DNA from: Acidimicrobiaceae bacterium
GTDB taxonomy: Bacteria; Actinomycetota; Acidimicrobiia; Acidimicrobiales; Aldehydirespiratoraceae
Assembly: GCA_009835735.1 (NCBI GenBank)
Contig: VXWX01000019.1
Span: forward strand, 979 to 64,978
DNA length: 64,000 nucleotides
Direction: 5' to 3'
Under the pieces are notes generated by a model that ran no database searches, was not told the origin of the DNA, and saw only the letters and a list, made by a program, of their open reading frames with translations. Of the stretch, positions 25,755 through 51,208 are shown piece after piece (the stretch's first letter is position 1; each line of letters starts with the position of its first letter). Position numbers and translations under genes: made by a program.

Positions 25755-25759
25755 GATCG

Positions 25760-26666: not shown

Positions 26667-28346
<1,680 letters not shown>

Positions 28347-28349
28347 CCG

Positions 28350-29866: not shown

Positions 29867-32018
29867 CCCACTTCAGTAGAGCGCGAAGAAGGGACGTGGC
29901 ACCACGTCCGTTCACACGCACCAAACGCGACGACTCAACCGAGCGCTCGATCGCGATAGTAGCTGCGTGCTTTGCGTGGCTGGTCTGCATGAGGACGACA
30001 TCCGAACGACGCACGAAGCCATCCAACTCGGAGTTGTTCGCTTTGGCGTGCGATAGCCGTACCTCAACGCCGGGCCACTCGTCACGGATCCACTCTGCGG
30101 CGTTCTTGGCAGCCGATTCGGACAACGAGTAGATGCCGACCCGATCAAAGGCTTTGGCCTTTCGAGAAACATGGGAGCCGGCCTGATCCGTAGGCGGCGG
30201 ATCGAAGTCGAGACCTATGTGCGCGAACAGCTTCCTAAGTACGGTCGCTTCGGTCTCGTCGATCCGCCCGTACCACGAGACGGCGACGCCGAGCGCCTCG
30301 GCGAACAACTCGGCACGCAATCGGGTGTCGGGGACCGCGCTCAACAACTGAACGTCCAACATCCCCGTCAACCAGTCGACCTCCCGTGGGCCAAGGAGGA
30401 CTAGTTGGTCGCGCAGGGCGGCTACGGCGGTCCGGTACTCGTCCGCCGAGCAACCCGTCAGAAGGATCTCGCCGAGCAGATCGAGAGCGGCGAGCCTTTC
30501 CGCTCGACCCGGATCGCTTCCAAGCATGATGTCGAAGATGGTCACTGCCAGAGGTATGGACGAAGGCCGAAGACCGTCGTCGGACGCGAGCCACTCAACG
30601 AGGGCTGGGAGGCCATTTCGTACGCGGCCCCGACGATCGTCGTTTAGAGCGTCGAGCAGTTCACCAGCGAGCGTGTCGGCTGCTTCATGGGCTGAGGCGA
30701 TGTCGCGCTCCCAAGCTGAAGACCAGTCGTTGAGGAGATCCGGGCGGTCGGGCCATTCGCCTCGCAGCCAATCCATCCAGTCTTCGGGGACCTGAGTGCC
30801 CTGATTGCGTTCGACCAACTGTCTGTAGAACGCGCCTTCGACGGCTTGCGATAGCAGAGCGTCGCGGTCGGCTGCCGGAAGTCGATCTACGAGGGCGACC
30901 GCACGTGCCGCGGCTCCAGCACTGCCCAGATTGAGTGCGGCATGCATGACTGCGGTCGCGACATCCCGATCAGGCTTGGCTCGTTCGGCGGCATCAAGCG
31001 CCAGTTCGAGATCCCCGCGCTGGTGATGACCCAGGATCGCGGAGACGCCGTCCAGACGTTCAGTCTCTTTGGAGGTTCGCTCGGTGGCGGACTCGAGTGC
31101 AGCCACGATTCCTGCCACCAGGGCGTCCTCGCTCCAGTCCGATCGAAGGAAGTCGATCACCCCGCGCCTTGGAGACTCGGCGAGGAGTTCGATTAGCGCG
31201 AGACACCTCGCGCCGTGAACAGACCGAACCTGACTCGGGTGCGATAGCAGTCCAGGCCATGCCTCCTCAATGGCCGACGCAACTGACCGCCAGGTGTCGT
31301 ATCCCGACTCTTCCGCAGTCGGAGGGATGTGAAGGGCGTCGGCGGCGCGGGCGAGATAGTCGCTGACGGCTGGGGGACGCCGTAGCAGTGAGATGTCTTC
31401 GAGGAGAGGATCGTGCCGGAGTTCTTCGGGAGATCCGAGGCGACCAAGCAGTTCGACACGGAGGAATCGGATGTTGGTCGCCGAGAGCAAGCCTCCAGCG
31501 CGGATCTCCTCCAGTGCCTCCGTCGCTGAGTCTCGATCCCTCGCGGCGATCGCTTCGTAGAAGTGCCTCAGGACTCTGCCAACAGGTCGCGGCGTGTGGG
31601 GAGCGCGCTCTGGGGTGAGCGCCCATACATCGACCAATGAGTGGACGTTCTGGCGTGCCTCACTCTGCCAGCCCGCTGTGACACGACTCCGCAAGACGAT
31701 CCCATCGCTGTTGAACTGTGCTGCTCGTTCGTCAATCACGTCCTCGGGTGTCTCGACAACAGATGGGCCGTCGCACAAAGGAGGTCCGAGCCACGAGGCC
31801 ATCTCCTCTGTCAGCAGCCGGCCGTCACGATCGGATCCGGCGATCCCGTACCACCTCGTCCTGTTGTTGATCCTGGCCGGCAGCAGCGTCCGCTTGCCGT
31901 TTGCGAGCCGGCTCAGTAGGACTCGCATCAATTCTGCGGCCTCCCCTGGAAGGGTGCTGAAATCGACTTCGTTGGGCTCTTCGTAGAAGGTGCTCACGCG
32001 GGGGTCGATCTCACTCAT
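29850..32018 (-). CDS. Large uncharacterised protein, last gene of the cluster (possible DpdD equivalent)
   Basis: 722-726 aa. ATG 32016-32018 overlaps the PLD-gene stop (ATGA), and an alternative GTG lies at 32030. I recognise no catalytic motifs. It appears mostly helical, with a C-terminal alpha/beta-looking ~100 aa (VGIYSLSESAAKNAAEWIRDEWPGVEVRLSH...VVLMQTSHAKHAA). The assignment to DpdD is by elimination only. Confidence 0.45.
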   Translation of the reverse strand: MSEIDPRVSTFYEEPNEVDFSTLPGEAAELMRVLLSRLANGKRTLLPARINNRTRWYGIAGSDRDGRLLTEEMASWLGPPLCDGPSVVETPEDVIDERAAQFNSDGIVLRSRVTAGWQSEARQNVHSLVDVWALTPERAPHTPRPVGRVLRHFYEAIAARDRDSATEALEEIRAGGLLSATNIRFLRVELLGRLGSPEELRHDPLLEDISLLRRPPAVSDYLARAADALHIPPTAEESGYDTWRSVASAIEEAWPGLLSHPSQVRSVHGARCLALIELLAESPRRGVIDFLRSDWSEDALVAGIVAALESATERTSKETERLDGVSAILGHHQRGDLELALDAAERAKPDRDVATAVMHAALNLGSAGAAARAVALVDRLPAADRDALLSQAVEGAFYRQLVERNQGTQVPEDWMDWLRGEWPDRPDLLNDWSSAWERDIASAHEAADTLAGELLDALNDDRRGRVRNGLPALVEWLASDDGLRPSSIPLAVTIFDIMLGSDPGRAERLAALDLLGEILLTGCSADEYRTAVAALRDQLVLLGPREVDWLTGMLDVQLLSAVPDTRLRAELFAEALGVAVSWYGRIDETEATVLRKLFAHIGLDFDPPPTDQAGSHVSRKAKAFDRVGIYSLSESAAKNAAEWIRDEWPGVEVRLSHAKANNSELDGFVRRSDVVLMQTSHAKHAATIAIERSVESSRLVRVNGRGATSLLRALLKWATSDG

Positions 32019-32542
32019 GGTTCGCCCCACCTGTCTCGATACGTAGCCCGCGCCCGTGCAACCGCATCGCTGTCATCCGTGAGATGAACGACTTCCTCGA
32101 GCTTCCGCAGTCCGTTGTAGGTCAAGTTCATCGAGCCGCTGAGCAAGGTGGTGGCAAATAAGATTCCCTTCTCGTGCAGTTCAGGAGACATGCTGATGCG
32201 CACACACTGTTCACGGTCGAGATCCCGAGCTCTGCGCTGGATCTGGTCTGTGAACGATCGGTTGTGGTCGTCGGGGCGGCAGGCGACGACGAGGGATCCG
32301 CCCCGAATCAACTGCTGGTCGATGATTTCGCCAAGTCGAATCCAGCGTTCCGGGAGTGCCGGGATTAACCCTGCGAAGCGACCCGCTCGGTTGTCAATAA
32401 TCGGAACGTCAGAGATCCACGGAGTCACCATCCACAGAGGCGTGCTGGGCACGAGAACCTCGGCGACGAAGAGGCACTGGAGCGCGTCTGCCAACTCCTC
32501 CCGAGAGCCGAAGGCCGTAGTGCGGAGACTCCGGACCGTCAC
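32015..32542 (-). CDS. dpdK: Phospholipase-D/HKD-family nuclease (DpdK-like)
   Basis: Single HKD motif HEKGILFATTLLSGSMNLTYNG (HxK-x4-D-like-x6-GSxN). GTG 32540-32542 overlaps the stop of the upstream helicase (GTGA). About 175 aa from this start; the track start 32695 lies inside the helicase gene. Confidence 0.8.
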   Translation of the reverse strand: MTVRSLRTTAFGSREELADALQCLFVAEVLVPSTPLWMVTPWISDVPIIDNRAGRFAGLIPALPERWIRLGEIIDQQLIRGGSLVVACRPDDHNRSFTDQIQRRARDLDREQCVRISMSPELHEKGILFATTLLSGSMNLTYNGLRKLEEVVHLTDDSDAVARARATYRDRWGEP

Positions 32543-35500
32543 TGTTGTGCCTCGCGGATGTCCACCGTCAGGGTGATCTCGGCTGTCGACCGTTCGACGC
32601 CAACCACCCGGGGATGAAACTCCAGGACGCCGACCGCGGTCGGCGCTGTCAGCAGTTGATGCAGGGCGTGCGCTGCCTCTGCCTCGTCCGTGCATGCGAT
32701 CCGCGCGACTCCGTCGAGGCCCAAACGGTTGTCGAGGTCGTTTCTCCAGTCGGCGGTGCCGAACCGAACGGCGGCAGCGGGCGCTTGTGTGATGGACTCG
32801 ACAAGCAGACGCTCGGTATTCGGCGGCTGACGGTACGGGTTGTAGCTGTCCAGACTCGCCGCACGCAACTTGCTACCGCGGGGCCATAGCAGCCCGACGA
32901 TCTGCCCGACAGTCCACTCTGAATTCTGGTCGGCCTCCGATGCGATGGCGGCCAGTGCCCGGCGAGTCTCGTCATGTTGAGCCGCTATGTAGGCGAACAC
33001 ACGGAGATCAACTTCAAGTCCCAGTTCGGCCTCCAGCGCGTCCCAGCGATGGAGCAGGTCTCGGCACAGTCGCTCTACCGGCGTGTCGCTGCCTGCTCGG
33101 AGGAGTCGAGTAGCAAGTGCGCTGATCACGGTCTGGTCCGCGTCAATCCCAGTGCGGAACATCCTCTCGCGAAGCGACGCCCAGGCCCTCGTCGTGGCGG
33201 CGAGGTTCGAGGCCGCTCGGATGTGGTCGACTTCGCTGGAGAGGCGCCCTTCGTCTCGGTCTCTCAAGAACCGGCGCAGCGCCCCGTCGACGCGCTCGCC
33301 GTCGCATGGGCCGAGAACACTTGTCACTACGGCCCAGAACGCTCGCGGATCCTCGGTGATCCGGTCGACCGCAGTCTCAACTACGCCGCTCCCACCGGGT
33401 TGATCCTCTGAGATCGTGATTTGCGCGAACGGCTTGTCGTCATCGGACGACAGGAGTTCGAAGTCCGCCCGCAGATCGTCAACCTCAAGGTCGGGGCACA
33501 CTGCCTGCATCGCTCCGATGAGTCCCGCCGCGACCGTGGACGCATAGCGCTCGTGTATCCATGCGAGCGACTCCGCCGGCATCGGCCTGTTCAGGACCAT
33601 CAGACACCGTCGGAGCGCGACCACGTTCTCACTGTCGCGGAGGGCGAGCTCCACGTCTGTGACGAGACCTGGGTCGCGGACGGGTTCCGCCGGATCGTCC
33701 GACGGTCCCTCAGCGCCGAATACCGAGCGAGCGGCCTCGACCATCGCTCCGGTCAGAGCCGCGGCGGAGGGTTCAACGAGGCTCGCCCCGGCGCTGGCGG
33801 ACGCGGTCACCACCGCGCACAGCGCGAGTTGTGCGAGCCACTCGCGAAGGAATGGAGACGGAACTCCCTCAGCCAGCACGGAGTCGGTGAGAACCAGGTG
33901 CTCGAAGTAGGTGGTGCGAAGGGCGCGGTCGAGTGCAGTCCCAGGCAGGGAGGGCAGATCCTCGGGCAGCTCGACGTCGAACCGGAGCCCGTCGACCTCC
34001 ATCGCGAACCCGATGGCGGCATCGTCTCCCGCCAGTCGCACTCGGTGCCGTGTCGCCGGCGGCTCGGTCGGAACGTGTCGCTCGATCTCAACAGTCCGTG
34101 CTATCCGCCAGATGGTCAGCGGTGCCCGGGCTCGGTGGGTCATCACCGCCACGGATCGAACCTGCTTCGTCCACGGAGTGCCGGATGGAACGTCCAGTGC
34201 GGCCGGTGCGCCGTCGACCCGGAAGAACACTTCCCAACTCCATCTGCCGTACGACGAGTCGGGCACGCGGTGAAGATCGGGGCGCGTCAACTGAAGCGAA
34301 CGGGGTTGGACCACGGGCTCCTGTACGCCGGGTGGACATGCCAGGTGCAGGTAGTCCGAGCAGAAGGTGTCGAGGTCGAGGCTCGGTTCCGTCGATGGCG
34401 GCGGCTCGACCCACATACGCTCGCGCTTGCCTCCGAGGGCGAACCGGTAGCTGACTCTTCCGGGAGCAAACTCGCGCATCGACGGCGCTATCGGTTCGAT
34501 CTTGGGCTCGGGCTGGACCGATCCGGTATGGGGGAGTTCAATCCGCACCTCGGGGGTCTGTAGCAGAGCGAAGAGCGTGCTCGGGACGAAATCCACGAGG
34601 GGATCGCCCCATCGGAAGCGGCTGGGCAAATTGTGCTGGCTGACGACGGCTTCGAGACGACGAATGATCGTCGGCAGGACGGTGGTGGCAATCGCACGCG
34701 GGTAGTCGAAGAGGACCGAACGAGCTTCCTCCTCACTGATCCGAAAGGACCGTTGGAGGTCGCTCCCTATCCTGTCGAGGCCTTCGTCGGTCAGCAGTTT
34801 CCTGGCTGCGGTCAGTGCATCGCCCGCTGCCCGGACTTGCCGGTCGGGGTTGCGCGACCACGGCGACTTGAGCACGGATCGCAGAGGAGTTCCGCCCGAT
34901 GCTCGTGTCAGGTGGTCGACCAGCCACCATGTGGCCTGCATCTTGAGAATGACCCGGTTCTTGATTGGCAGGTGGGAGGGTTGGACCTTAGGATCGAACA
35001 GGGATTCGTAGGCTTGGAACGCGAGCCGGTCTCGTCCATAGTCGGACAGGGCCACGGCCGTCCAGGGCCGCATCGCTGGGTCCCTGCCGGCCCTCCCCCG
35101 ACGTTGAAGGAACTGCGCCGAGTCACGTGGGGCCTTGTGCTGAAGCACCGCGCCGACATTCGGATCGTCGAATCCCACCTCGAGGGAGGCAGTGGCGACG
35201 ACGATGTCGCTCTTGCTGTCGACGCCAGCGTCCTGCGAAGTCGTACGGTCGACGACAACATGGCGGTCCAGCGTGCCCAACTCCGAGGAGGCGTCCCAGA
35301 GTTGGCCCACCTCGTCTCGCGGACCGTTGTCGTTGCCTGGGGCGCGGAGGAGCGCGAGGCTTCCCTCCGGCTTACGGTCCACGCCCCCCGGCTTCCAGCC
35401 TTCGGCGTCCTGCAGTTGCGAATGGAGCCGGTTGACGACGTCGAGCTTGTCGGTGAATGCGAAGACGCGGTTCCCGAATGCGCCGCCGCTGGGGACGCCG

Positions 35501-36897
35501 GACTCGACGTCGAGCATGCGACGCATGAGCATCGCCGTTTGGATGGTTGTCGAGAGCAGGGACGTCTGCGACGCGGGATCGCCGCGGAGTGCCATGAAAT
35601 ACTCACGGCCCGACTCGCGCATTTCGGCATCGCTGGGTGCCACGACGGCCACATTTCCGGTGTCGGCTCCCATCAACTGGGAGAAGAACCCCGCCGGGTC
35701 GGCAAGCGTGGCGGACAGCCCGACCACGTGGCTCGGATGCGCCATCTCGGCGCGCCACCGGCGAATGAGATGAGCCACTTGCGCGCCGTGTGTCCCGGAG
35801 TAGGTGTGGATCTCATCGAGCAGGACAAAATCGGGGGCGCCGCTGGAGTCCCCGACAAGCAGTCGTCGCATACGGGGCGTTCCAAGCAGCCGGTTCACCA
35901 TCTCCGTCGTGGTAAAGAGGATCTCGGGCGGCTTCGAGGTCAGCGTCCGGCGGGAGAACACGAGCGACTCCAACTCGAATCCGCATCTGCTGCACCGAAG
36001 ATGGAGGCCTTCTTTGGCGCCGTCCGGCCAGACGAACTCGCCAGAGCATCCGTCCGCGATGCAAGTGACCATCGGTGATGTAAGCCCTTCTGCTGTGGAG
36101 CGCCATCCTCTGAGCCGGTTCCACCGCGCCTCATCCCGGTCGTGCGGTGTCGCTCCATAAAGAGCACCCACTCGCAGGCGGACCGAACCGCGTTCCTTCA
36201 AATCCTCAGCAAGCTCCAGGATCGTGCCGAGTTGGTCTCGCAGCAGTTCGGTGCGCGGGTATATCGCGACGATGCGGGGAATCCCAGCGGGTGCGGGAAC
36301 GCTGAGCGCGTGAGTCAGCGCGGGGAGATAGAAGGCCAGCGTCTTGCCAGCGCCCGTGCCTGCGGTGACGCAGGTTCCTCCGCGGTCGCCCACCGCGCTC
36401 AACAGCCTCTCGGTTGACCTCGCCTGAAACTCTGACACCGACCGCCCGCCGAGGATCGCGCTCAGGGTTGCTTCATGGCTGACCGTCCACCGCTCGCCCA
36501 GGTCGGTGCTGAGACGGTCGGTCAACTCCCGTTCATCGACAGCTCGAACGGGAACAACGCGCGGACGGGCAAGGAAGCGCATGTCTGAGACGAGCGTCTT
36601 GGCCGTGCGCCAGTCGCTTCGAGGGCCGTGGAACCACTGCCTAAGGTGCCGAGCCAGGCGAACCGTCTCTGCCATGCGTGTCCGGAACCGACTCCCGGCG
36701 AGTCCACGCTCGAAGACCAGCCCAGCCGCGAGGAGCCGCTTCAGGAGGTCCTCGGGATCGTCTTGGGGCTTCACCGCTTCCAGCAGTTCGAGGATCTCGT
36801 GCTCGCCGTATGCACCACTCGTGACGCCCCATGTGAGAAGGGGCATCTCGCGCGCCTCCAGTTCGTTGAGAACCTCAACGAGGACAGGGTCGGTCAC
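32539..36897 (-). CDS. dpdJ: Giant DExH-box superfamily-2 helicase with long C-terminal extension (DpdJ-like)
   Basis: 1452 aa. Motif I TAGTGAGKTLAF, motif II LLDEIHTYSG, motif III GLSATLA and motifs V/VI ATASLEVGFD...QRRGRAGRD are present. A Cys4 insertion (CIADGCSGEF...LRCSRCGFE) lies between motifs I and II. About 800 aa downstream have no family I recognise. Confidence 0.8.
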   Translation of the reverse strand: MTDPVLVEVLNELEAREMPLLTWGVTSGAYGEHEILELLEAVKPQDDPEDLLKRLLAAGLVFERGLAGSRFRTRMAETVRLARHLRQWFHGPRSDWRTAKTLVSDMRFLARPRVVPVRAVDERELTDRLSTDLGERWTVSHEATLSAILGGRSVSEFQARSTERLLSAVGDRGGTCVTAGTGAGKTLAFYLPALTHALSVPAPAGIPRIVAIYPRTELLRDQLGTILELAEDLKERGSVRLRVGALYGATPHDRDEARWNRLRGWRSTAEGLTSPMVTCIADGCSGEFVWPDGAKEGLHLRCSRCGFELESLVFSRRTLTSKPPEILFTTTEMVNRLLGTPRMRRLLVGDSSGAPDFVLLDEIHTYSGTHGAQVAHLIRRWRAEMAHPSHVVGLSATLADPAGFFSQLMGADTGNVAVVAPSDAEMRESGREYFMALRGDPASQTSLLSTTIQTAMLMRRMLDVESGVPSGGAFGNRVFAFTDKLDVVNRLHSQLQDAEGWKPGGVDRKPEGSLALLRAPGNDNGPRDEVGQLWDASSELGTLDRHVVVDRTTSQDAGVDSKSDIVVATASLEVGFDDPNVGAVLQHKAPRDSAQFLQRRGRAGRDPAMRPWTAVALSDYGRDRLAFQAYESLFDPKVQPSHLPIKNRVILKMQATWWLVDHLTRASGGTPLRSVLKSPWSRNPDRQVRAAGDALTAARKLLTDEGLDRIGSDLQRSFRISEEEARSVLFDYPRAIATTVLPTIIRRLEAVVSQHNLPSRFRWGDPLVDFVPSTLFALLQTPEVRIELPHTGSVQPEPKIEPIAPSMREFAPGRVSYRFALGGKRERMWVEPPPSTEPSLDLDTFCSDYLHLACPPGVQEPVVQPRSLQLTRPDLHRVPDSSYGRWSWEVFFRVDGAPAALDVPSGTPWTKQVRSVAVMTHRARAPLTIWRIARTVEIERHVPTEPPATRHRVRLAGDDAAIGFAMEVDGLRFDVELPEDLPSLPGTALDRALRTTYFEHLVLTDSVLAEGVPSPFLREWLAQLALCAVVTASASAGASLVEPSAAALTGAMVEAARSVFGAEGPSDDPAEPVRDPGLVTDVELALRDSENVVALRRCLMVLNRPMPAESLAWIHERYASTVAAGLIGAMQAVCPDLEVDDLRADFELLSSDDDKPFAQITISEDQPGGSGVVETAVDRITEDPRAFWAVVTSVLGPCDGERVDGALRRFLRDRDEGRLSSEVDHIRAASNLAATTRAWASLRERMFRTGIDADQTVISALATRLLRAGSDTPVERLCRDLLHRWDALEAELGLEVDLRVFAYIAAQHDETRRALAAIASEADQNSEWTVGQIVGLLWPRGSKLRAASLDSYNPYRQPPNTERLLVESITQAPAAAVRFGTADWRNDLDNRLGLDGVARIACTDEAEAAHALHQLLTAPTAVGVLEFHPRVVGVERSTAEITLTVDIREAQQ

Positions 36898-37631
36898 GAT
36901 CGGCGAACTACGAAGGCGTCCAGCACGCCGGCCGACCGGAGCGCGGCCATGAGTTCGGGCGTCACCTCGCTGAGGGGCAGGCCGCCGGATGATGTTGCGC
37001 GCTGGATGGCGACCTGCACCTCCGGTGGCCTTCGAGCATGATCCCGGTCTATGTCAGCGATCACCTCTCGAAGTTCTTGGATGAGTTTGTTGACTTGCTC
37101 GATGCAGGCACCAAGGCCTCTCGTCTTGAGGTGCGCTTCCAACTCGGATCGTTCCCTGATCGGGTCCAGGTTGCGAACAACTCCAAGCGTTCGGGCACGG
37201 TTCTGTGCTCTCACCTTGTCTGTGGTCGTTCCGTGGAGGTCGGCGGAGTTCGCGCGCTCCAGCAACTCTTCGACAGTGGCGAAGTTGTCTCGCCAGGTCG
37301 ATCTGGCCCAGCGGTCGACCCGCCTGATCTGGTCAGCAACGACATCGTGTAGCGTGGCTGCCGACTGCTGCTGAAGTGCCTTGGGACCGCTCTTGGAGAG
37401 GGCGCCGCGAAAGCGACCGATGGCCTGACGGATCGCGCTGGTGTCCAGCCTCGGCGGATCCGTGCGACCAATCGCTGCTCGGTAGGACTGAACAGCCTCG
37501 AGGTACTCAGCCGCCGATGCGATGTCACTCCGCACAGTCTGTCCGCGCGCCAGCAGTTCATCTTCCGTGTCCGCTGTGCTCGCAGCTTCCAGCTGGAGTC
37601 GAAGCTCGTTGGCGGTCTCGAAGAGTGTCAC
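36894..37631 (-). CDS. Uncharacterised helical/coiled-coil protein (DpdI position)
   Basis: 245 aa. It has GTGA overlaps at both ends (37628-37631 and 36894-36897). No motifs are recognised, and the assignment is positional. Confidence 0.55.
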   Translation of the reverse strand: MTLFETANELRLQLEAASTADTEDELLARGQTVRSDIASAAEYLEAVQSYRAAIGRTDPPRLDTSAIRQAIGRFRGALSKSGPKALQQQSAATLHDVVADQIRRVDRWARSTWRDNFATVEELLERANSADLHGTTTDKVRAQNRARTLGVVRNLDPIRERSELEAHLKTRGLGACIEQVNKLIQELREVIADIDRDHARRPPEVQVAIQRATSSGGLPLSEVTPELMAALRSAGVLDAFVVRRS

Positions 37632-40606: not shown

Positions 40607-41505
40607 CGCGCTCCGCCTCGCGACACATGCGAAAAGGTCGTTCCGTCGGGTCGGGTGATCCTCGGAGCGTCGGCACGGTCCTCGAAGGTCAAGTGTCCGG
40701 TCGTCTCAAGCCGTCGCAGAGCGTCCGTTGTCGCGGAACTCAGCGGCCCGTCGGGCTCTGACGAACGGTTCCAGTTCCTCTCCACAAACAGTCGGTACGC
40801 GCCTGACTCCATAACGGGAAGGTGCGCACCGAGGGCGGCAACAAAGGAACGGCCATCAAGCGTCGATTCGCTCTCGAATATCGCGGGAATCGAGTCGCGC
40901 ACGGCCGGAGTGGGATCGGGGATCAGGCGTCCGGACGGAGAGCGCCACGCAAAGCCCAGCGAGCACGCCCAGCGCTGGAACGTATTCCATCGAGTGCTGT
41001 TGGAGATCGGCCAGCCGCTCCTATCGTCGTCTTCGCTTTGTCGCGGACCGAAGTCGGCCTCCTGCTGGGACTTCACCGAAGGCGGATCACCCTCCATTCG
41101 GGCGGGCGCATCGGCAGGCCTGAAGGTGAGGTACCACGAAAGAGCGTTAGTGAGGTCGCGCGCGCCTTGCTGGCTGCCCCAGGCAGCGGTGTTCAGCTCG
41201 GCGGACAGGACCCGCCTGCGCACTAGCGCCGCAATCGCTGAGGTTCCACGCCTAGCGGCCTTGATGCTCTCGGGGCTCAATGACACCCGCTCACCGTCGC
41301 GGACGGCGAGGCCGATCTCGACCGCGCTGGCAAGGTTGAGCCTGGCGTCGAGTTGGTGCTTCTGCGGTGACTCGGTGAGGCTCGGCGGCGAGATCGCGTC
41401 GACGATACGGGTCCGTTCATCACGCTGGCCCCGACACTGGGCGAGATAGAGAACTATGACGCTCATCATGCTCGCTCGCAGTTCTGGTGGATTGAGCAAG
41501 GCCAT
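40603..41505 (-). CDS. Uncharacterised protein (DpdG position)
   Basis: 300 aa. The ATG at 41503-41505 is preceded by a GAGGGGGG-like RBS 11 nt after the upstream stop. No motifs are recognised. Confidence 0.55.
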   Translation of the reverse strand: MALLNPPELRASMMSVIVLYLAQCRGQRDERTRIVDAISPPSLTESPQKHQLDARLNLASAVEIGLAVRDGERVSLSPESIKAARRGTSAIAALVRRRVLSAELNTAAWGSQQGARDLTNALSWYLTFRPADAPARMEGDPPSVKSQQEADFGPRQSEDDDRSGWPISNSTRWNTFQRWACSLGFAWRSPSGRLIPDPTPAVRDSIPAIFESESTLDGRSFVAALGAHLPVMESGAYRLFVERNWNRSSEPDGPLSSATTDALRRLETTGHLTFEDRADAPRITRPDGTTFSHVSRGGAR

Positions 41506-41516
41506 GTCACCCCCTC

Positions 41517-44093
41517 CTAGAGAATGCGCTCAAGATCGGCAACGCGAATCGCCCCATCATGGTCTAGAAGTGACCGGCCGGACGCCCCAACACGCAGGCC
41601 GCAGGATCCGAGTACGACGAAGAGGCTCGACCGGGCGCTGCCGTCCAGCAGAGGTTCCGGATCGACGCCCTCGTCCACGATCACTAGCGTCGGGACGCCC
41701 ACCTCGGTGAGCGAGTCGAAGTCGTCGAGCGAGCTGACCATCAGCGGCAGTCGCGCGCCAGCGTGTGGATGGCACCAGTCGCCAACTATGTGAAGCATGT
41801 CGTCTGGCACCGCGAGAAGTTGGATGCCGCCCGCAGTTACGAGAGACCGAACGATGCGCCGGAGTCTGCGGCCGGATTGGATTGTCGACACTTCAACCCC
41901 GACGATCAGCCGCGGTCCCCAGCGGCCCTGCGCTGCGAGTTGATGGAGCCGGGTTGGGTTGGCACGGGGAGCTTCGATTCCGCTGGGGCTGGGAGATGGC
42001 GAAGACCATCTGCGGCAGCCGTACTGACGGCAACGGGCACACCCTCCACAACTCGCGAAACACGCCGTCTGCAACCGAGGGGGACTCGAGATCGAGTAGT
42101 TGCGTCTCAGCAGTTCCCCCATGCACTCTCGAGCGGACAGGGCTGTTCTAAGACTCTTCAACCCTTCACGCGACCCTTCGACCATCCGAGTCCGGACATC
42201 TTCGGCGACCCTGCGCCAGAAGTCCGGCGACTGGTGGTTGCCGCGAAGGATGCGGACGGTCAGCCATCCACCGTCGTCGAGGGGTGGATCGGAATCTGTC
42301 GATAAGTGGTCGAGACTGAAGTCCCAGGCGAGAGCGCCCGCTCGAGCCATCAGGCTGACCGTGAACAGATTCCATCGCTCGTTGTAGTCGGTGTTCTGAT
42401 CCAGATTCCTCGGGACCGCGGTCAGAGGTACTCGGATTAAGTCGGAACCGAGCACATCCCTAGCCTGGAACATCGCGGTCCACCGGTCGCGCGCACGGTC
42501 CGCCGTAAGCACCCGCGGTGTCGCGATGCCGCCTGCGACCTCCTCATCTGCTTCTGTGCGCAGCACCAGGGAGATCATCGGTCGCCCGTCACGTCCACCC
42601 CTCCCCACCTCTTGGTAGTAGCGGTCGAGGCTCTCGGGCACGCAAGCGTGGATGATTGTGCGGACGTCTGGAACGTCGAGGCCGAGCCCGAAGGCGGATG
42701 TGGCGAACACGAGATCGATGGTGGAGGACCGCCCTGGCGAGTCGCGGAGGTCGCGGAGAACGGCCTCCCGGTGTGAGGTCGTAGAAGAGCCGTCCACCAC
42801 TGCGAAGCGGGTGAACCCGTGAGCTGACGCGAGCCGACTGATCCGCTTCGGGGTCAGGGTTCCTGGGCGCGCCGCTCGCTCGTCGCGCAGAGTCGTATAG
42901 ACGATGCCCGGCCGCGGAAGATGTCGCAGCGACTCGATTAGTCGGGCCTCTCTTGCATCCGTGTCAGCCGTGGGCGCGGCCCAGAAGCTCGGCTCGGGCC
43001 GCACAACCGGCGCGCCGACATGAAGGAACGGACCCGGTCGGCCGAAGAGACTCTTGAGCAGGAGCAGCGTATCCCCGGTGATGGTGGCACTCGCAAGCAC
43101 CGTCTTGAACGCCTCGTGGCCAGCGGCGCTCGCCTCGCGCAGCAAGTGAGTGCGCAACCCGGCCAACGCGTGGAAGTGTGGCCGGAAGGAGTCTCCCCAG
43201 GACGCGACGATATGGGCCTCGTCAATGGCGAGCAGTCGGAGCCGACCGCCTGCCGCGGCAGAACTCAGGGGCCGTGCGAGGGAGGTGACGAGAGCTTCAG
43301 GGTTCGTGAAAATGATCGGTTGGCTGCCGGATCGCAGACGAGCTAGGAAGTCAGCCTTCTCGTCCGACGTCAGCCCACCGTGGTAGGCGGTGGGCGGCGC
43401 ATGCGGATGCTGGCTCGCGTACCGCCGCTGCTGGTCGAGCGCGAGTGCAACCGTTGGAACGACGACGGCCGATACAGAGTTGCTGGTCGAGGCGGTAACT
43501 GCTGGCGCGAGCATCGCCAGGGTCTTGCCGCCGCCGGTCGGGAGATTGATGACAAGCGTGCTTCCAGCGCTCGCGATCAGCGCGCTACGAACAGCTGCGC
43601 GCTGACCGGGCGTCCGATACGTCGTGAAGTCCTCGTCGATGAGCGCGAGGAACGGATCTCCGCGTACCGATTCGTCTCTGCGCACCACGCGAAGATCCGA
43701 GACGTCATGGTCAACCGCGGGGACTGAGCGACAGTCGAGCCACTGAGGCGTCCACGGAGCAGCGCGAATGCGTGTCGCGGCCTCGCGGCGCGGTTGAGCT
43801 TCGAGCCCGAAGTCCCTCCACCGATAGTCCGGAGGGAACGACCGAGAATGAGGCACGTCGAGCCAGGCCGCGGTCGCTCCAACTTCAGCGTCGGCACTAT
43901 CCCCCCGCCCGCATGGGCTGCGGCGAACATCGTCGCAGCGGAGCACCTGGCGAAGCAGCACCGCGGCATCCGCTGTTCCGCCGAGCCCATCCGATGCCGA
44001 CTGGAGCGCGGCTGAGATCCGGTCGCAGACCTCGATCCGCTGGCCAGCGGCCAGACAGTAGAGAAGCGACTGAACGTCTTGGACGGTGCGCAT
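41517..44093 (-). CDS. dpdF: RecQ-like DEAD/DEAH-box helicase (DpdF-like)
   Basis: 858 aa. Present are YRTPGQRAAV (Q-motif-like), motif I NLPTGGGKTL, motif II LLAIDEAHIVASWGDSFRPHF (RecQ-style), motif V/VI FATSAFGLGLDVPDVRTIIH...YYQEVGRGGRDG and a C-terminal Cys cluster (CFASCGGCARCRQYGC). Confidence 0.8.
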   Translation of the reverse strand: MRTVQDVQSLLYCLAAGQRIEVCDRISAALQSASDGLGGTADAAVLLRQVLRCDDVRRSPCGRGDSADAEVGATAAWLDVPHSRSFPPDYRWRDFGLEAQPRREAATRIRAAPWTPQWLDCRSVPAVDHDVSDLRVVRRDESVRGDPFLALIDEDFTTYRTPGQRAAVRSALIASAGSTLVINLPTGGGKTLAMLAPAVTASTSNSVSAVVVPTVALALDQQRRYASQHPHAPPTAYHGGLTSDEKADFLARLRSGSQPIIFTNPEALVTSLARPLSSAAAGGRLRLLAIDEAHIVASWGDSFRPHFHALAGLRTHLLREASAAGHEAFKTVLASATITGDTLLLLKSLFGRPGPFLHVGAPVVRPEPSFWAAPTADTDAREARLIESLRHLPRPGIVYTTLRDERAARPGTLTPKRISRLASAHGFTRFAVVDGSSTTSHREAVLRDLRDSPGRSSTIDLVFATSAFGLGLDVPDVRTIIHACVPESLDRYYQEVGRGGRDGRPMISLVLRTEADEEVAGGIATPRVLTADRARDRWTAMFQARDVLGSDLIRVPLTAVPRNLDQNTDYNERWNLFTVSLMARAGALAWDFSLDHLSTDSDPPLDDGGWLTVRILRGNHQSPDFWRRVAEDVRTRMVEGSREGLKSLRTALSARECMGELLRRNYSISSPPRLQTACFASCGGCARCRQYGCRRWSSPSPSPSGIEAPRANPTRLHQLAAQGRWGPRLIVGVEVSTIQSGRRLRRIVRSLVTAGGIQLLAVPDDMLHIVGDWCHPHAGARLPLMVSSLDDFDSLTEVGVPTLVIVDEGVDPEPLLDGSARSSLFVVLGSCGLRVGASGRSLLDHDGAIRVADLERIL

Positions 44094-44094
44094 G

Positions 44095-47000
44095 TCACTT
44101 CCCGATCCGGCCGGGGTCGGCCAGAACGATCACTCCGCAGCCGATCACCTCGACCGCCATCTCCACGCGGCTGGGAACTGCTGACGTAAGCGCCTCGAAC
44201 GTCTGTACCTGTTCGTCTACCGGCTCCAGGCCCGTCGCAGTCCGAGCACGCAGTGCGGCAAGGTGGCCGTCGATCGACGATCTGAGCGACTGCGCCGCAT
44301 GGGCGGCGCGAGGCCCGACCGAGTCGCGACCGTCGAGGATGCGGCTCGCACTCGCGAGACCCTGACCGCACACCGCCTCCCAGTCGAAGTGTTCAGTGAG
44401 TTGATCGAACATCTCCGTTCGCCGCATGAGGTTCCGGTCACTCTTCGCTTTCTCGAAGGGACGAGTCGCTGACCCACCGTCCACCTCCACACCTTGGTCG
44501 GACATGTACACAGTCTCCAGAACAGGGGGCACGAGCGACTCACGCTGGACCTGCAGCCAGGACGTAACTCCCTGCTCGCGGGCGATGCGATCCAGTTCAT
44601 CCGTAGTCCACCCTCGCACCAGGAAGTCCGTCCGAAACACCACCGTAGGCGGCCAGCACCCCCGCTCTGGCCGCATGAAGGCGAATGCAACGCCGCGGTC
44701 ATCGTCGCGGAGGTGGCGCACGATCGCATCCAACAACCCGTGGCCAGGCCTCACGAGCGGCACCTTGCGATCCACGGCCGCCTCACGTGACAGCGCAATT
44801 TCGGTATCGAACCATGGAGCCATCGCACGCTCGAGCGCGAACGGAACTTGAGGGCGCGGGCGGTTGGCGATCCGAAGGCTGCCCTTGGCAGGACTCCACA
44901 TCTTCGCCCCCACTCCGGTCAGCCACGTCTTGAGCGCCGCGCCGAGCCGTGGGTTGGCGTCCTCGTGAATGAGACGCTCGTTGAGGCCGCGGTGGAGGCC
45001 GCTCACCGAGTCAAGGGAGTCGTGCGCCGCGATCCGCTGAGCCTCGACATCAAGGCTGTCGCGTCTTGACTCGACATCGGAGTCGAACACCTCGGCGCCG
45101 CCCGCGATCAACTGGCCCAGCACTTCGGACTCCAGGTCAGCAAGGACATATTGCAGCGACGAGACCGACCGGTCGAACACCCCGCAGGAGTCCGCCGCGA
45201 ACAGGAACCATCCCGACCCGTAGACCTGATCGCCGTAGATGAACACCATCGACTCGACAGGCTGTGACTTGCCGCGGACGAATCGGTCGGCTCGGCCGAG
45301 TCGCTGTTCGAGGCGGAACACGTCCCACGGCAGGTCCAGGTGGACGACCACGTCGGCTGACTGGAGATTGATGCCCTCCTCAGCGCTGGCATCGCAGATC
45401 AGGAGGCGACAGTTCGCGTCCTTTCGCCACCGGTCGACACTCGCCGCGTTCTCCTCCCGTGACCGGGCGCTCAGATGCTCGGCCACTCGGTGCGTCCCGG
45501 AGGAATCCACTACGGCCGAATACACGACCTGCGCCACCCTCGGGTAGGCGCTCGCCACGACGACCTTCCCGAGATCCTTGGCTATGGCCATCCTGACGAT
45601 CTGACGTGCCGTCTCATCAAGAACGATTGGAGCGGCGGCCTCCATTTCACGCCGCCAAGCCTCACCCCTGGACGCGAGCCAGTGCGACACCAGTCCGACC
45701 GCTCCTGCGGACTCGTCGTGATCCATGAGTTCCAGAACTGCATGGGGCAGTGAGCCACAGGCTTGGCCCAGCATCCGTAGTGCTTCTGTCGCTCGCTCGA
45801 CTCCGACCTTCTCTGAGTCGATGAGTTCGGCCATATGCAGTCGGAAGCCTTCGATCAGGTCGATCCGGACTTCTTCGCTGTCGTCGCCGATCTCAACGGT
45901 GAAAGGTCTGCCGCGGCGACGGCCGCGCACGCCGAAGCTGGCGCTGATCTGCGGGCTCCGGCGGGTCCGAAGGAGCCGGTGGTGTAGCCGGTAGGTTTCC
46001 GAGAGATGCTCTCGGACCCTCACTATCCGGTCGGGCCGCTGGGTATCGGTGCAGTCCTGGGTGTGGCTGATAAGCAGATCAAGCGCCTTGTCGTTCGGGA
46101 AGAGGGATCGAAGTTGGTCGGCGAATAGCGAGAAGTCGAAGTCGTCCAAGTCGGGGGTGAGCGAATGGTGAATGAGTGCGAGGTCGTCGCGCATCTCGAC
46201 CCGACGAGTGAACTCGCCGAGATCCTGCGGCTGGTAGTTCTTCGGGTCAAGCAGGTGCAGAAGATCAAGGAAGGCCACCTCGTTCGTGCGGACCGGTGTC
46301 GCCGAGAGGAGGAGAACATCTCTCGCTCCGTGCGCCAAATCGGTCACACGCACCAGCGTCTCCGCCGGTAACGGGCCGGCGTGAGTGAGGTGGTGGGCTT
46401 CGTCAACCACGAGAACGCCCACAGGTCCGTCGGGCCATGTCTCCGGTTCCTCGTGGGCACGGATTCGAATCGAGGCCCTCGGAAAGTGATCAGCATGGAA
46501 CTTACCGATTAACTCTTCGACCCACTGTTGACGGAGGTGGTCAGGAGCCAGCACGAGCACTTCGCCGGTGGGCCGGTCACGCAATGACTGCCACACGAGT
46601 GCGCCGGCCTCGACGGTCTTGCCGAGGCCTACCTCGTCGGCCAGAAGGTACCGATGTTCGTGGTCGTCCGAGACGCTGCGCACGACCGTGAGTTGGTGGT
46701 CATGGAGTTCAACCGATCCCAGCAGAAGTCCGTCAACCCCGGCTGCGGCGGCCCGCAGAACGTGCCACGACGCGAGGAGATCTACTCTTGGCTCGTACAC
46801 ACGCGGGCTGGTGCCACCGAGCGCGGCGAGTATCTCATAGGGATCCTCGATTCGAGGCGCCCATCGGACATCGAACTGGTCGCCCGACAAGATCTCACCC
46901 TCGCGGTTCGGCAAGGCCACGACGTACTGCTCGTCACCGCGGTGGTCGCCGTCGACCCGCCCGCTCCTCCAGCGGTGTCCATCGTGGAAATACACCCGCG

Positions 47001-47247
47001 AATGGGCCCGGATCTCGGCAACAGCGACCTGCTGCAGATCTACCTCGCGCTCGACGTAGGGTTTCTGCACCGGAGCTCGGAAGTAGCGGATGCGAGCAGT
47101 CGCTCCGTCGACGCCCACGAGGCGACCGATGCCCAGTTCTGGCTCGCCGACGACGAACCGGCCCAGATCAGATGGGCCAATCTGAGCGGGACCCGCCCCG
47201 CCAACTCCTCGCCCGGGCTGAGCGCTGGGTGCACGACTCCGCCGCAT
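44095..47247 (-). CDS. dpdE: SNF2/RapA-type helicase-ATPase (DpdE-like)
   Basis: 1050 aa. Present are LHDHQL, motif I LLADEVGLGKTVEAG, motif II LVVDEAHHL, motif III LLLSATPVRTN and the C-lobe LLICDASAEEGINLQSADVVVHLDLPW...LEQRLGRADR. The stop lies 1 nt before the next gene's ATG. Confidence 0.8.
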   Translation of the reverse strand: MRRSRAPSAQPGRGVGGAGPAQIGPSDLGRFVVGEPELGIGRLVGVDGATARIRYFRAPVQKPYVEREVDLQQVAVAEIRAHSRVYFHDGHRWRSGRVDGDHRGDEQYVVALPNREGEILSGDQFDVRWAPRIEDPYEILAALGGTSPRVYEPRVDLLASWHVLRAAAAGVDGLLLGSVELHDHQLTVVRSVSDDHEHRYLLADEVGLGKTVEAGALVWQSLRDRPTGEVLVLAPDHLRQQWVEELIGKFHADHFPRASIRIRAHEEPETWPDGPVGVLVVDEAHHLTHAGPLPAETLVRVTDLAHGARDVLLLSATPVRTNEVAFLDLLHLLDPKNYQPQDLGEFTRRVEMRDDLALIHHSLTPDLDDFDFSLFADQLRSLFPNDKALDLLISHTQDCTDTQRPDRIVRVREHLSETYRLHHRLLRTRRSPQISASFGVRGRRRGRPFTVEIGDDSEEVRIDLIEGFRLHMAELIDSEKVGVERATEALRMLGQACGSLPHAVLELMDHDESAGAVGLVSHWLASRGEAWRREMEAAAPIVLDETARQIVRMAIAKDLGKVVVASAYPRVAQVVYSAVVDSSGTHRVAEHLSARSREENAASVDRWRKDANCRLLICDASAEEGINLQSADVVVHLDLPWDVFRLEQRLGRADRFVRGKSQPVESMVFIYGDQVYGSGWFLFAADSCGVFDRSVSSLQYVLADLESEVLGQLIAGGAEVFDSDVESRRDSLDVEAQRIAAHDSLDSVSGLHRGLNERLIHEDANPRLGAALKTWLTGVGAKMWSPAKGSLRIANRPRPQVPFALERAMAPWFDTEIALSREAAVDRKVPLVRPGHGLLDAIVRHLRDDDRGVAFAFMRPERGCWPPTVVFRTDFLVRGWTTDELDRIAREQGVTSWLQVQRESLVPPVLETVYMSDQGVEVDGGSATRPFEKAKSDRNLMRRTEMFDQLTEHFDWEAVCGQGLASASRILDGRDSVGPRAAHAAQSLRSSIDGHLAALRARTATGLEPVDEQVQTFEALTSAVPSRVEMAVEVIGCGVIVLADPGRIGK

Positions 47248-48496: not shown

Positions 48497-48504
48497 GGTG
48501 CCGA

Positions 48505-49752: not shown

Positions 49753-49867
49753 CACGCCCGCCCGACGCTGAAGCAGACGCGGAAGAAGAGGTTCGCTACC
49801 GGGCGCTGGTTGCGGGCAGCATTCGTGCGGGCGACCCTCCGCAGCGAGAGGTCGTCCGACAGGATCT

Positions 49868-50815: not shown

Positions 50816-50937
50816 CTACTGTGGGCGTTTCCCCATTCACTGGTCTGGTCGATAAGGCGGGGGTGGTTCCCGCGGCGTGACGGTAGTTGAGTTCGTGCTG
50901 GCCCGATGTGGAAGTCGGTGTGGCATCTGGTGATGTA

Positions 50938-50985
50938 GCGAGTGAAGCCACTCGCATACCGACCGGCGCGCTGTTGCCCGGTCGG
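50938..50985. promoter_or_regulatory. Two adjacent perfect hairpins in the presumed 5' leader of the dpd operon
   Basis: The first is GCGAGTG-aagc-CACTCGC (50938-50955). The second is CCGACCGG-11 nt-CCGGTCGG (50959-50985). They lie 123-170 nt upstream of the first gene's ATG (50815) on the minus strand. Confidence 0.35.
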
Positions 50986-51096
50986 GGTAGCGGTGCTGGC
51001 GCTTCGGCGTCGGTCGGGGTGTGTCGGTCATCTGGAACAGAATCCATCGAGTCAGTGTAGTTGCCAGTCTCTGATAACTCTAAATCACTAAGTTGA

Positions 51097-51125
51097 TTGA
51101 AACTACAGAAGTTAGATGCTACTAT
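51097..51125 (+). promoter_or_regulatory. Sigma-70-like promoter candidate for the 51209 gene
   Basis: TTGAAA (51097-51102), a 17-nt spacer, then TACTAT (51120-51125). It sits in the most AT-rich patch of the window (51050-51130). Confidence 0.35.
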
Positions 51126-51208
51126 CGTCGCTAGCCCGGCTGCCGGGCGCTATTGGAGCTGTCAACGGCTCCCGCTAGTCGAGATCACGAGTAGACGGGA
51201 GGCCCGGA

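What the first reader, a model, noticed from the sequence alone, without database searches (positions are those of the whole stretch)
32015..47247. Restriction module: three different SF2 helicases, a P-loop NTPase and an HKD nuclease, translationally chained
Within about 15 kb the cluster encodes the following components.
- An SNF2 remodeller-type ATPase (DEVGLGKT / DEAH).
- A RecQ-style helicase (DEAHIVASWGDSFRP).
- A DExH helicase of 1452 aa with a Cys4 insertion and an ~800-aa unassigned C-terminal region.
- A 992-aa Walker A/B NTPase.
- A minimal single-HKD nuclease (~175 aa), which would have to dimerise to form an active site.
Four motor proteins feeding one small nuclease is unusual compared with the defence systems I know. 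How unmodified DNA is sensed is not evident from any domain I can recognise.
Basis: partly seen in the sequence, partly recalled or inferred. Interest (0 to 1): 0.65.

Follow-up and report, generated by a model that had tools for sequence, protein, structure and literature searches.

The report
Known Dpd (7-deazaguanine) restriction operon
The cluster is real, but it is the restriction half of the already described Dpd system, which marks the host's own DNA with 7-deazaguanine bases and attacks unmarked DNA; this copy is an ordinary, complete one in an Acidimicrobiaceae metagenome genome.

Summary
Window 32015-47247 (minus strand) holds seven intact genes, most joined by 4-nt start/stop overlaps. 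They are not a new system. Six of them (DpdE, F, G, H, J, K) pass NCBIfam equivalog cut-offs; DpdI scores below its cut-off but sits in the conserved position between dpdH and dpdJ. The modification genes dpdC-dpdA-dpdB (47330-50815) lie directly upstream on the same strand.

The 21-kb island has lower GC and GC3 than its flanks and interrupts a housekeeping block between xerD and trpS/scpA. The same 11-gene order occurs in four MAGs from two phyla. The restriction order E-F-G-H-I-J-K-D is the same on an Enterobacter cloacae plasmid annotated by PGAP. Catalytic motifs are intact. The Asp of DpdK's HKD motif is Ala here, at a position that varies across the family.

New here:
- Natural DpdJ-DpdK fusion proteins exist.
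- DpdG is predicted with high confidence and its helix/strand order resembles winged-helix modules.
- DpdD is predicted as an alpha-solenoid with alpha/beta end domains.

How Dpd senses unmarked DNA is still unknown in the literature, but the locus itself is ordinary.

The parts
49868..50815 (-). dpdC (315 aa). In Salmonella, DpdC converts preQ0 in DNA to the amide ADG.
   Evidence: PADLOC DpdC PDLC02817, 196 bits, E 1.8e-58. No NCBIfam hit. Only a weak Pfam DUF6884 hit, E 0.01. 62-82% identical orthologues sit at the same position in L001, L002 and L004.
48505..49755 (-). dpdA (416 aa), a TGT-like DNA guanine transglycosylase
   Evidence: NF041059 DpdA, 570.6 bits against a cut-off of 200.
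47330..48496 (-). dpdB (388 aa), a DGQHR/DndB-like ATPase partner of DpdA
   Evidence: NF041060 DpdB, 481 bits against a cut-off of 300. Pfam DndB.
44095..47247 (-). dpdE (1050 aa), an SNF2-type ATPase related to DrmD and BrxHII
   Evidence: NF041062 DpdE, 746.9 bits against a cut-off of 500. Pfam SNF2-rel_dom and Helicase_C. PADLOC DrmD 1.5e-32 and BrxH 6e-32. Motifs GLGKT 207, DEAH 282, SAT 315, QRLGR 648.
41517..44093 (-). dpdF (858 aa), a RecQ-like DEAH helicase with a C-terminal Cys cluster
   Evidence: NF041063 DpdF, 684.9 bits against a cut-off of 550; recQ_fam 2.5e-34. Motifs GGGKT 189, DEAH 291, SAT 335, QEVGRGGR 494. Cys 678/682/685/688/693.
40603..41505 (-). dpdG (300 aa). Predicted fold has three helix/strand units resembling winged-helix modules; function unknown.
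   Evidence: NF041064 DpdG, 176 bits against a cut-off of 80. AF2 model pLDDT 91.7, pTM 0.90. Foldseek against PDB gave no significant hit; the weak hits are winged-helix proteins such as IclR, MarR, DtxR and the FokI recognition domain.
37628..40606 (-). dpdH (992 aa), a P-loop NTPase
   Evidence: NF041065 DpdH, 583 bits against a cut-off of 450. Walker A core SGxGKS and Walker B hhhhED are conserved from Acidimicrobiia to Enterobacter; the acidic Walker B pair also holds in the Paenibacillus dpdH-position homologue.
36894..37631 (-). dpdI (245 aa), a small helical protein and the least conserved component
   Evidence: NF041066 DpdI, only 37.5 bits against a cut-off of 150. No PADLOC or Pfam hit. 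Positional orthologue between dpdH and dpdJ in all relatives, 54-68% identical in the MAGs and 23% in Enterobacter.
32539..36897 (-). dpdJ (1452 aa), a YprA/DrmA-family DExH helicase with a Zn-ribbon insertion in RecA1
   Evidence: NF041067 DpdJ, 1369 bits against a cut-off of 800, full length 10-1452. Motifs GTGAGKT 184, DEIH 361, SAT 395, QRRGRAGR 598. Cys 279/284/302/305. Weak PDB sequence hit to YprA 6znp.
32015..32542 (-). dpdK (175 aa), a single-HKD phospholipase-D-family nuclease
   Evidence: NF041068 DpdK, 180.5 bits against a cut-off of 100. Pfam PLDc_2, 29.8 bits against a cut-off of 27. H123, K125, G136, S137 and N139 match the near-invariant family columns. The GTG start at 32542 gives a GTGA overlap with the dpdJ stop.
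Predicted alpha-solenoid flanked by alpha/beta domains.
   Evidence: NF041061 DpdD, 361 bits against a cut-off of 300. An identical 722-aa protein is annotated in an NCBI Acidimicrobiaceae MAG. AF2 pLDDT 85, pTM 0.54. Foldseek gave TPR/PPR-type repeat matches, E about 3e-4 with low TM.
50816..51208 (.). Upstream non-coding region of the island, with an AT-rich stretch at about 51040-51200. This is the right-hand island boundary.
   Evidence: Sequence read. GC3 changes from 0.68-0.76 for island genes to 0.83-0.92 for the right-hand flank genes. One promoter-like site on the + strand at 51097-51125, no more than chance gives.

Best explanation
The span is the restriction operon (dpdE-F-G-H-I-J-K, continuing into dpdD) of a complete, canonical Dpd system. 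Dpd is a 7-deazaguanine-based restriction-modification island.

Shown for orthologues in the literature:
- DpdA, with the ATPase DpdB, swaps specific guanines in host DNA for preQ0.
- DpdC hydrolyses that base to the amide ADG.
- dpdD-dpdK reduce the establishment of DNA that lacks the mark.

Inferred here for how the restriction half works:
- DpdJ, a YprA/DrmA-type helicase, and DpdK, a half-site PLD nuclease, form one helicase-nuclease effector. Two DpdK copies must come together to build one active site.
- DpdE (SNF2, like DrmD/BrxHII) and DpdF (RecQ-like) supply ATP-driven translocation and unwinding.
- DpdH is a large P-loop NTPase. With its small partner DpdI it acts as an assembly or licensing switch.
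- DpdG, if its winged-helix-like modules bind DNA, is a candidate reader of the mark or of its target site.
- DpdD, an alpha-solenoid, is a scaffold.

On DNA carrying dPreQ0/dADG the complex is held inactive. On unmarked DNA it is licensed and DpdK cuts. The tight start/stop overlaps fit proteins made in fixed proportions for one multi-subunit machine.
For: Identity:
- Seven of the eight restriction proteins exceed NCBIfam equivalog cut-offs, and all but DpdI hit PADLOC Dpd models.
- DpdA and DpdB exceed their cut-offs, and DpdC hits PADLOC.

Functional unit:
- The same order C-A-B-E-F-G-H-I-J-K-D occurs in three Acidimicrobiia-group MAGs and one Dehalococcoidia MAG, at 54-91% protein identity.
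- The PGAP-annotated Enterobacter cloacae plasmid pPOL9A has dpdE-F-G-H-(hypothetical)-J-K-D, again with overlapping junctions.

Intact motifs.

DpdJ-DpdK coupling:
- GTGA overlap between the two genes.
- Single polypeptides of 1657-1739 aa match full-length DpdJ plus DpdK.
- One such fusion cluster has five members across three sources, with 12 contig sightings listed.

Relationship to DISARM and BREX parts: PADLOC hits of DpdE to DrmD and BrxH, of DpdJ to DrmA and DruE, and of DpdK to DrmC. Also bioRxiv 10.1101/2025.09.15.676423.

Roles of DpdA/B/C and assignment of dpdD-K to restriction: PMC10164549, PMC12707154.

Folds of DpdG and DpdD.
Against: - No biochemical role is known for any of DpdD-K. 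A 2025 review says the restriction activity has not been explored further (PMC12707154).
- The winged-helix reading of DpdG rests on secondary-structure order and on non-significant Foldseek hits (best E 0.025).
- The reported DpdH/I-BrxC relationship could not be reproduced by sequence here. There was no BrxC hit at E <= 5, and only P-loop matches in PDB.
- DpdI is below its family cut-off.
- DpdK carries Ala where most family members have Asp.
- No preQ0 biosynthesis or salvage gene was found among the flank ORFs scanned, which did not cover every ORF. The substrate supply is therefore unverified.
- The sequence comes from a metagenome assembly, so expression and activity are untested.
Confidence: 0.85

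Rival explanations
1. The helicase/nuclease genes form a DISARM- or BREX-like defence module. It acts independently of 7-deazaguanine and merely sits next to dpdCAB.
For: DpdE, DpdJ and DpdK have recognisable similarity to DrmD/BrxH, DrmA/DruE and DrmC.
Against: - Scores to the DISARM models are far below their cut-offs (DrmD 132.7 against 610, DrmA 24 against 999). The Dpd equivalogs are exceeded.
- No methyltransferase, PglZ or PglX was detected in the island: every ORF chosen as an island gene is assigned to a Dpd family.
- The restriction genes stay linked to dpdA/B in every relative examined, across phyla.
Confidence: 0.05
2. The cluster is a decaying, non-functional remnant in a reduced symbiont genome.
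For: DpdK has Ala at the Asp position of HKD. DpdI is poorly conserved. No preQ0 genes were found among the flank ORFs scanned. A relative carries recN and an AAA_14 gene between nadK and pyrG that are missing here.
Against: - All eleven ORFs are full length against their family models, and the helicase, Walker and H/K/GSxN motifs are intact.
- The Asp position is variable in the family: D 82, E 14, S 13, G 7, A 6 of 139.
- The 4-nt overlaps are preserved.
- Only about 27% of dpd islands carry preQ0 genes nearby (PMC12235509).
Confidence: 0.06
3. DpdD-K are accessory factors that help DpdA/B reach and modify chromosomal DNA, or repair it afterwards. They are not a restriction machine.
For: Base exchange creates abasic-like intermediates. 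Helicases and an SNF2 remodeller could plausibly assist access. No cleavage activity has been shown for DpdK.
Against: DpdA/B/C alone reconstitute modification in vitro and suffice in vivo. dpdD-K are credited with the restriction phenotype (PMC10164549), and the eight genes lowered transformation efficiency when transplanted (PMC12707154). A PLD nuclease overlapped with, and sometimes fused to, the large helicase fits an effector.
Confidence: 0.04

Closest known systems
Dpd system (dpdA-dpdK) of Salmonella enterica serovar Montevideo and related islands, e.g. Enterobacter cloacae plasmid pPOL9A NZ_CP086409.1
   Same: The full gene set is shared: DpdA, B, C, D, E, F, G, H, I, J, K. The restriction gene order E-F-G-H-I-J-K-D is the same, with overlapping junctions. 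DpdI and DpdC are the components that curated models miss, and PGAP also labels them 'hypothetical' in pPOL9A.
   Different: - Protein identity to proteobacterial copies is low: DpdJ 33-37%, DpdH 24%.
- dpdCAB lies upstream on the same strand, so all 11 genes read one way. In pPOL9A the modification genes are on the opposite strand.
- The island sits between xerD and trpS/scpA rather than at tRNA-leuX.
- No preQ0 genes are nearby.
- DpdK has Ala at the HKD Asp position.
- DpdH carries a clade-specific Cys/His cluster.
DISARM (DrmA/DrmB helicase, DrmC PLD nuclease, DrmD SNF2 helicase, DrmMI/MII methyltransferases)
   Same: Both combine a YprA-family helicase, an SNF2 helicase and a small PLD nuclease in a modification-dependent defence system (bioRxiv 10.1101/2025.09.15.676423).
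   Different: The mark is a 7-deazaguanine installed by a transglycosylase, not a methyl group. There is no methyltransferase. The helicase is one polypeptide. Dpd has the extra components DpdF, G, H, I and D. Scores to DISARM models are far below cut-off.
BREX (BrxC ATPase, BrxHII helicase, PglX, PglZ)
   Same: DpdE resembles BrxHI/HII (PADLOC 6e-32). The literature equates DpdH+DpdI with BrxC (bioRxiv 10.1101/2025.09.15.676423).
   Different: There is no PglX and no PglZ. The DpdH-BrxC link was not detectable by sequence here. BREX has no PLD nuclease effector.

Membership tests
Dpd system | DpdA (TGT-like DNA transglycosylase) and DpdB (DGQHR/ParB-like ATPase) are encoded in the cluster | tested here: met
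   NF041059, 570.6 bits against 200. NF041060, 481.1 bits against 300. The genes lie at 48505-49755 and 47330-48496, directly upstream of dpdE.
Dpd system | DpdC is present (needed for the ADG form of the mark; optional in some islands) | tested here: met
   PADLOC DpdC, 196 bits, E 1.8e-58. No NCBIfam model matched, and Pfam DUF6884 was only weak.
Dpd system | Restriction proteins DpdD, E, F, G, H, J and K each match their equivalog model above the curated cut-off | tested here: met
   Bits against cut-off: D 361/300, E 747/500, F 685/550, G 176/80, H 583/450, J 1369/800, K 180.5/100.
Dpd system | DpdI is present | tested here: inconclusive
   NF041066 scored 37.5 bits against a cut-off of 150, and there was no PADLOC hit. 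A 245-aa gene occupies the conserved H-I-J position and aligns end to end with the positional orthologues.
Dpd system | Genes are colinear in one island in the canonical order | tested here: met
   Same order in four MAG loci. Same restriction order as the PGAP-annotated pPOL9A.
Dpd system | Catalytic motifs of the ATPases and the PLD nuclease are intact | tested here: met
   Helicase motifs I, II, III and VI are present in DpdE, F and J. DpdH has Walker A and B. DpdK has H123, K125 and GSxN. The HKD Asp is Ala, at a variable family position.
Dpd system | Host DNA carries dPreQ0 and/or dADG | not testable with these tools
   This needs LC-MS/MS of genomic DNA.
Dpd system | Unmodified incoming DNA is restricted in a dpdD-K-dependent way | not testable with these tools
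   This needs transformation or phage assays.
Dpd system | A source of preQ0 is available (folE/queD/queE/queC or a YhhQ-type transporter) | tested here: not met
   None was found among the flank ORFs scanned in the 64-kb window, which did not cover every ORF. This is not a defining feature: only about 27% of islands have these genes nearby (PMC12235509). The rest of the genome could not be examined.
DISARM | DrmA plus DrmB (DUF1998) plus DrmC core, with a DrmMI/MII methyltransferase | tested here: not met
   DISARM models scored far below cut-off (DrmD 132.7/610, DrmA 24.3/999). No methyltransferase was detected in the island.
BREX | PglX methyltransferase and PglZ phosphatase together with BrxC | tested here: not met
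   No such proteins are in the island. DpdH gave no BrxC hit at E <= 5.

The most novel reading that the evidence does not exclude
The most novel reading not excluded is a mechanistic one about the known system. DpdG would be the subunit that reads the 7-deazaguanine status of DNA. DpdJ-DpdK would be an obligate helicase-nuclease effector whose half-site nuclease is completed only when two units meet on unmarked DNA. This Acidimicrobiia-type version has all 11 genes in one direction with 4-nt overlaps, which would make it a compact template for testing that model. A weaker variant: the clade-specific features (DpdK Ala130, the Cys/His cluster in DpdH, no local preQ0 genes) reflect a different mark or a different licensing rule from the Salmonella system.
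Probability: 0.15. Interest if true: 0.5.

Novelty: already known. Interest (0 to 1): 0.15.

Why it matters
For genome annotation, an 'unusual four-motor restriction module' becomes a routine call: a complete Dpd island. Current NCBIfam and PADLOC models would label it automatically.

The wider interest belongs to the Dpd family, not to this locus. No role is yet assigned to any of DpdD-K. Three by-products of this check may help whoever studies the mechanism:
- natural DpdJ-DpdK fusions;
- a high-confidence DpdG model whose helix/strand order resembles winged-helix modules;
- a solenoid-scaffold prediction for DpdD.

The locus also shows the same island moving between Acidimicrobiia and Chloroflexota MAGs.

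Tried and rejected
- Flanking direct repeats that could mark integration sites: only short chance-level matches.
- Sigma-70 promoter and intrinsic-terminator scans of the island ends and of the dpdB-dpdE gap: nothing above shuffled expectation.
- Sequence search of PDB with DpdK, DpdH, DpdD and DpdJ, and profile searches with DpdH and DpdG alignments: no solved Dpd restriction protein. Only generic helicase cores or P-loops matched.
- Test of the published DpdH/I = BrxC equivalence with PADLOC at E <= 5: no BrxC hit. I report it as a literature claim only.
- Search for preQ0 synthesis or salvage genes among the ORFs flanking the island: none found.
- The idea that DpdK is inactivated by its missing Asp: rejected after aligning 139 diverse family members.
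- The original Dpd paper (PMC4801273) and the 2024 MMBR review (PMC10966956) are not held in the library. Their content is cited only through papers that quote them.


Full report
**1. What is in the sequence**

Window 29850-50815 carries eleven consecutive minus-strand ORFs.

Against NCBIfam, six of the seven exceed the curated equivalog cut-off of a Dpd protein:
- 44095-47247: DpdE, 746.9 bits against 500.
- 41517-44093: DpdF, 684.9 against 550.
- 40603-41505: DpdG, 176.3 against 80.
- 37628-40606: DpdH, 583 against 450.
- 32539-36897: DpdJ, 1369 against 800.
- 32015-32542: DpdK, 180.5 against 100.

The seventh, 36894-37631, matches DpdI only weakly (37.5 bits against 150). It aligns end to end with the gene at the same H-I-J position in all relatives.

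PADLOC gives the same names. Pfam sees only the generic domains: SNF2-rel_dom, DEAD, Helicase_C, AAA_16 below threshold, and PLDc_2.

**2. Surroundings**

The next gene downstream, 29850-32018, is DpdD (361 bits against 300).

Directly upstream on the same strand are:
- DpdB, 47330-48496, 481 bits against 300.
- DpdA, 48505-49755, 570.6 bits against 200.
- DpdC, 49868-50815, PADLOC 196 bits.

The window therefore holds a complete Dpd island in the order dpdC-A-B-E-F-G-H-I-J-K-D.

**3.

- DpdE: DEVGLGKT, DEAH, SAT, QRLGR.
- DpdF: GGGKT, IDEAHIVASWGDS, SAT, QEVGRGGR, plus a Cys cluster at 678-693.
- DpdJ: GTGAGKT, DEIH, SAT, QRRGRAGR, with C279/C284/C302/C305 inserted between motifs I and II.
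- DpdH: GRSGTGKS and LVLFIED. The Walker A core is invariant in an alignment reaching Enterobacter and Paenibacillus homologues. The acidic Walker B pair holds in all but the more distant second Paenibacillus P-loop protein.

DpdK is 175 aa from GTG 32542. Its motif reads LHEKGILFATTLLSGSMNLT. His, Lys and GSxN are present, but the Asp of 'HKD' is Ala.

I aligned 139 diverse DpdK homologues from an exhaustive HMMER search. H, K, G, S and N are each present in at least 134 of the 139. The Asp column is variable: D 82, E 14, S 13, G 7, A 6. The substitution is therefore not evidence of inactivation.

Gene junctions:
- E->F: 1-nt spacer.
- F->G: 11 nt with GGAGGGGG.
- G/H: ATGA overlap.
- H/I, I/J and J/K: GTGA overlaps.
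- K/D: ATGA overlap.

The 'translationally chained' description is correct and extends to dpdD.

**4. Is it a unit?**

A scan of one genome per species found four loci with the identical 11-gene order (dpdC not recovered in L003). Three are Acidimicrobiia-group MAGs and one is a Dehalococcoidia MAG. Per-protein identity is 54-91%. The short flank captured downstream of dpdD in L001 holds different genes from the window's xerD.

The PGAP-annotated Enterobacter cloacae plasmid pPOL9A has dpdE-F-G-H-(hypothetical)-J-K-D with overlapping junctions. Its dpdB, dpdA and a hypothetical gene at the dpdC position are on the other strand.

A survey in the literature counts 2335 unique dpd islands, 333 of them in Actinomycetota. 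Complete operons are the commonest form, and dpdD and dpdI are the least consistently detected genes (PMC12235509). Neither is met.

**5. Origin and context**

An identical DpdD is annotated as a hypothetical protein of an Acidimicrobiaceae MAG. An identical DpdG lies on several metagenome contigs and on GCA_009839365.1.

Island genes have GC 0.60-0.66 and GC3 0.65-0.76. Flanking genes have GC3 0.78-0.95.

The island splits a housekeeping block. On one side are an amidase gene, a hydrolase gene, tlyA, nadK, pyrG, a NUDIX gene and xerD. On the other are trpS, scpA, scpB and rluB.

A 3.87-Mb relative has the island at the same site. Its DpdD protein is 95% identical, and its island DNA is 85% identical over the aligned stretch. 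The flanking core genes are 93-97% identical.

No flanking repeats, promoters or terminators of note were found.

**6. What is known about function**

In Salmonella Montevideo, DpdA and DpdB insert preQ0 into DNA in an ATP-dependent exchange. DpdC converts it to ADG. [quoted passage not shown] It also notes that the eight genes lowered transformation efficiency when transplanted (PMC12707154).

A 2025 preprint places DpdJ in the YprA family with DISARM DrmA/B and Druantia DruE. It describes an N-terminal winged helix, a zinc motif in RecA1 and a C-terminal ALBA-like domain. It equates DpdE with BrxHII and DpdH+I with BrxC (10.1101/2025.09.15.676423).

My PADLOC results agree for three proteins:
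- DpdE: DrmD 1.5e-32, BrxH 6e-32.
- DpdJ: DrmA 8e-12, DruE 1e-15.
- DpdK: DrmC 5e-4.

The BrxC link was not detectable by sequence. No Dpd restriction protein has a solved structure by sequence search.

**7. New pieces of evidence from this check**

(a) Several DpdK homologues are C-terminal domains of 1657-1739-aa proteins that also match full-length DpdJ. One fusion cluster has five members drawn from three sources, with 12 contig sightings listed. Another is an NCBI Dehalococcoidia MAG protein. Together with the J/K overlap, this argues that DpdJ and DpdK work as one helicase-nuclease.

(b) DpdG, modelled from 42 homologues, gives a confident model (pLDDT 91.7, pTM 0.90). The helix-strand order looks like three winged-helix-like modules. 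Foldseek against PDB finds nothing significant (best E 0.025). The weak hits are consistently winged-helix DNA binders: IclR, MarR, DtxR and the FokI recognition domain. This is suggestive only.

(c) DpdD (pLDDT 85, pTM 0.54) has three predicted parts: an N-terminal alpha/beta domain, a roughly 450-residue alpha-solenoid, and a C-terminal Rossmann-like domain. The solenoid matches TPR/PPR-type repeat proteins at E about 3e-4 with low TM-scores. The C-terminal domain has a faint DUF2325 hit. A scaffold role is the simplest reading.

**8. Most likely mechanism**

The modification half marks self DNA with dPreQ0/dADG. This is shown for orthologues.

The restriction half is a multi-subunit, ATP-driven surveillance machine. 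This part is inferred.
- DpdJ-DpdK is the effector. The single-HKD nuclease needs two copies to form an active site, which is established PLD-family knowledge (for example Nuc).
- DpdE and DpdF provide translocation and unwinding.
- DpdH/I acts as an NTP-dependent switch.
- DpdG is a candidate DNA or mark reader.
- DpdD is a scaffold.

I put about 0.85 on the identity and overall role. Any individual subunit assignment deserves much less.

**9. Verdict**

The system is already described, catalogued and covered by annotation models. This copy is a typical complete member. Novelty: already known. Interest is low for the locus. The open question of how Dpd senses unmarked DNA belongs to the family as a whole.

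Noticed in passing
window 29619-29866; L011 12166-12393 and 13138-14097: The 3' end of xerD overlaps the 3' end of dpdD by 17 nt, convergently. In the 3.87-Mb relative this xerD 3' segment occurs twice. One copy is a 75-aa integrase fragment abutting dpdD. The other is part of an intact xerD about 750 bp further on, with a 131-aa ORF between them. This may be a trace of how the island was inserted or exchanged.
   Followed up: partly
window 26617-26679, compared with L011 16443-19608: In the relative, a recN-like SMC_N gene (528 aa) and an AAA_14/DUF4143 gene (419 aa) lie between nadK and pyrG. In the window nadK is followed directly by pyrG, so about 3.2 kb including recN is absent at this position. 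It could be a real deletion or an assembly difference.
   Followed up: partly
window 29619-41993 compared with the flanks 24065-29845: Between the window and the 3.87-Mb relative, island DNA is 85% identical and the flanking core genes are 93-97% identical. The defence island has either diverged faster or been exchanged.
   Followed up: no
window 39320-39355 (DpdH residues 419-429): DpdH has a CDACDHQVHCH Cys/His cluster. It is conserved in the Acidimicrobiia and Dehalococcoidia copies and absent from the Enterobacter and Paenibacillus DpdH homologues. It may be a clade-specific metal site.
   Followed up: partly
window 51209-51574 (+): A 121-aa ORF with host-like GC3 (0.85) and no family match lies between the island and trpS. 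An AT-rich stretch at about 51040-51200 next to it carries the only promoter-like hit in the region.
   Followed up: no
window 16059-17195 (-): A 378-aa protein matches the ERG4/ERG24 sterol-reductase family (Pfam E 3e-34). This is uncommon in bacteria.
   Followed up: no
L010 (Paenibacillus sp. 37 plasmid pART37, NZ_CP043762.1) 5970-38515: This is a variant Dpd-like island. It has queC/queD/queE and a VUT transporter, a long 689-aa DpdA, a second TGT-like gene, two dpdJ copies and two large P-loop NTPases. It is more elaborate than the canonical layout.
   Followed up: no
proteins P0263, P0296, P0317: Natural DpdJ-DpdK fusion proteins of 1657-1739 aa exist in metagenomes, including a Dehalococcoidia MAG protein named DpdJ by NCBI (MEX2375169.1).
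   Followed up: yes
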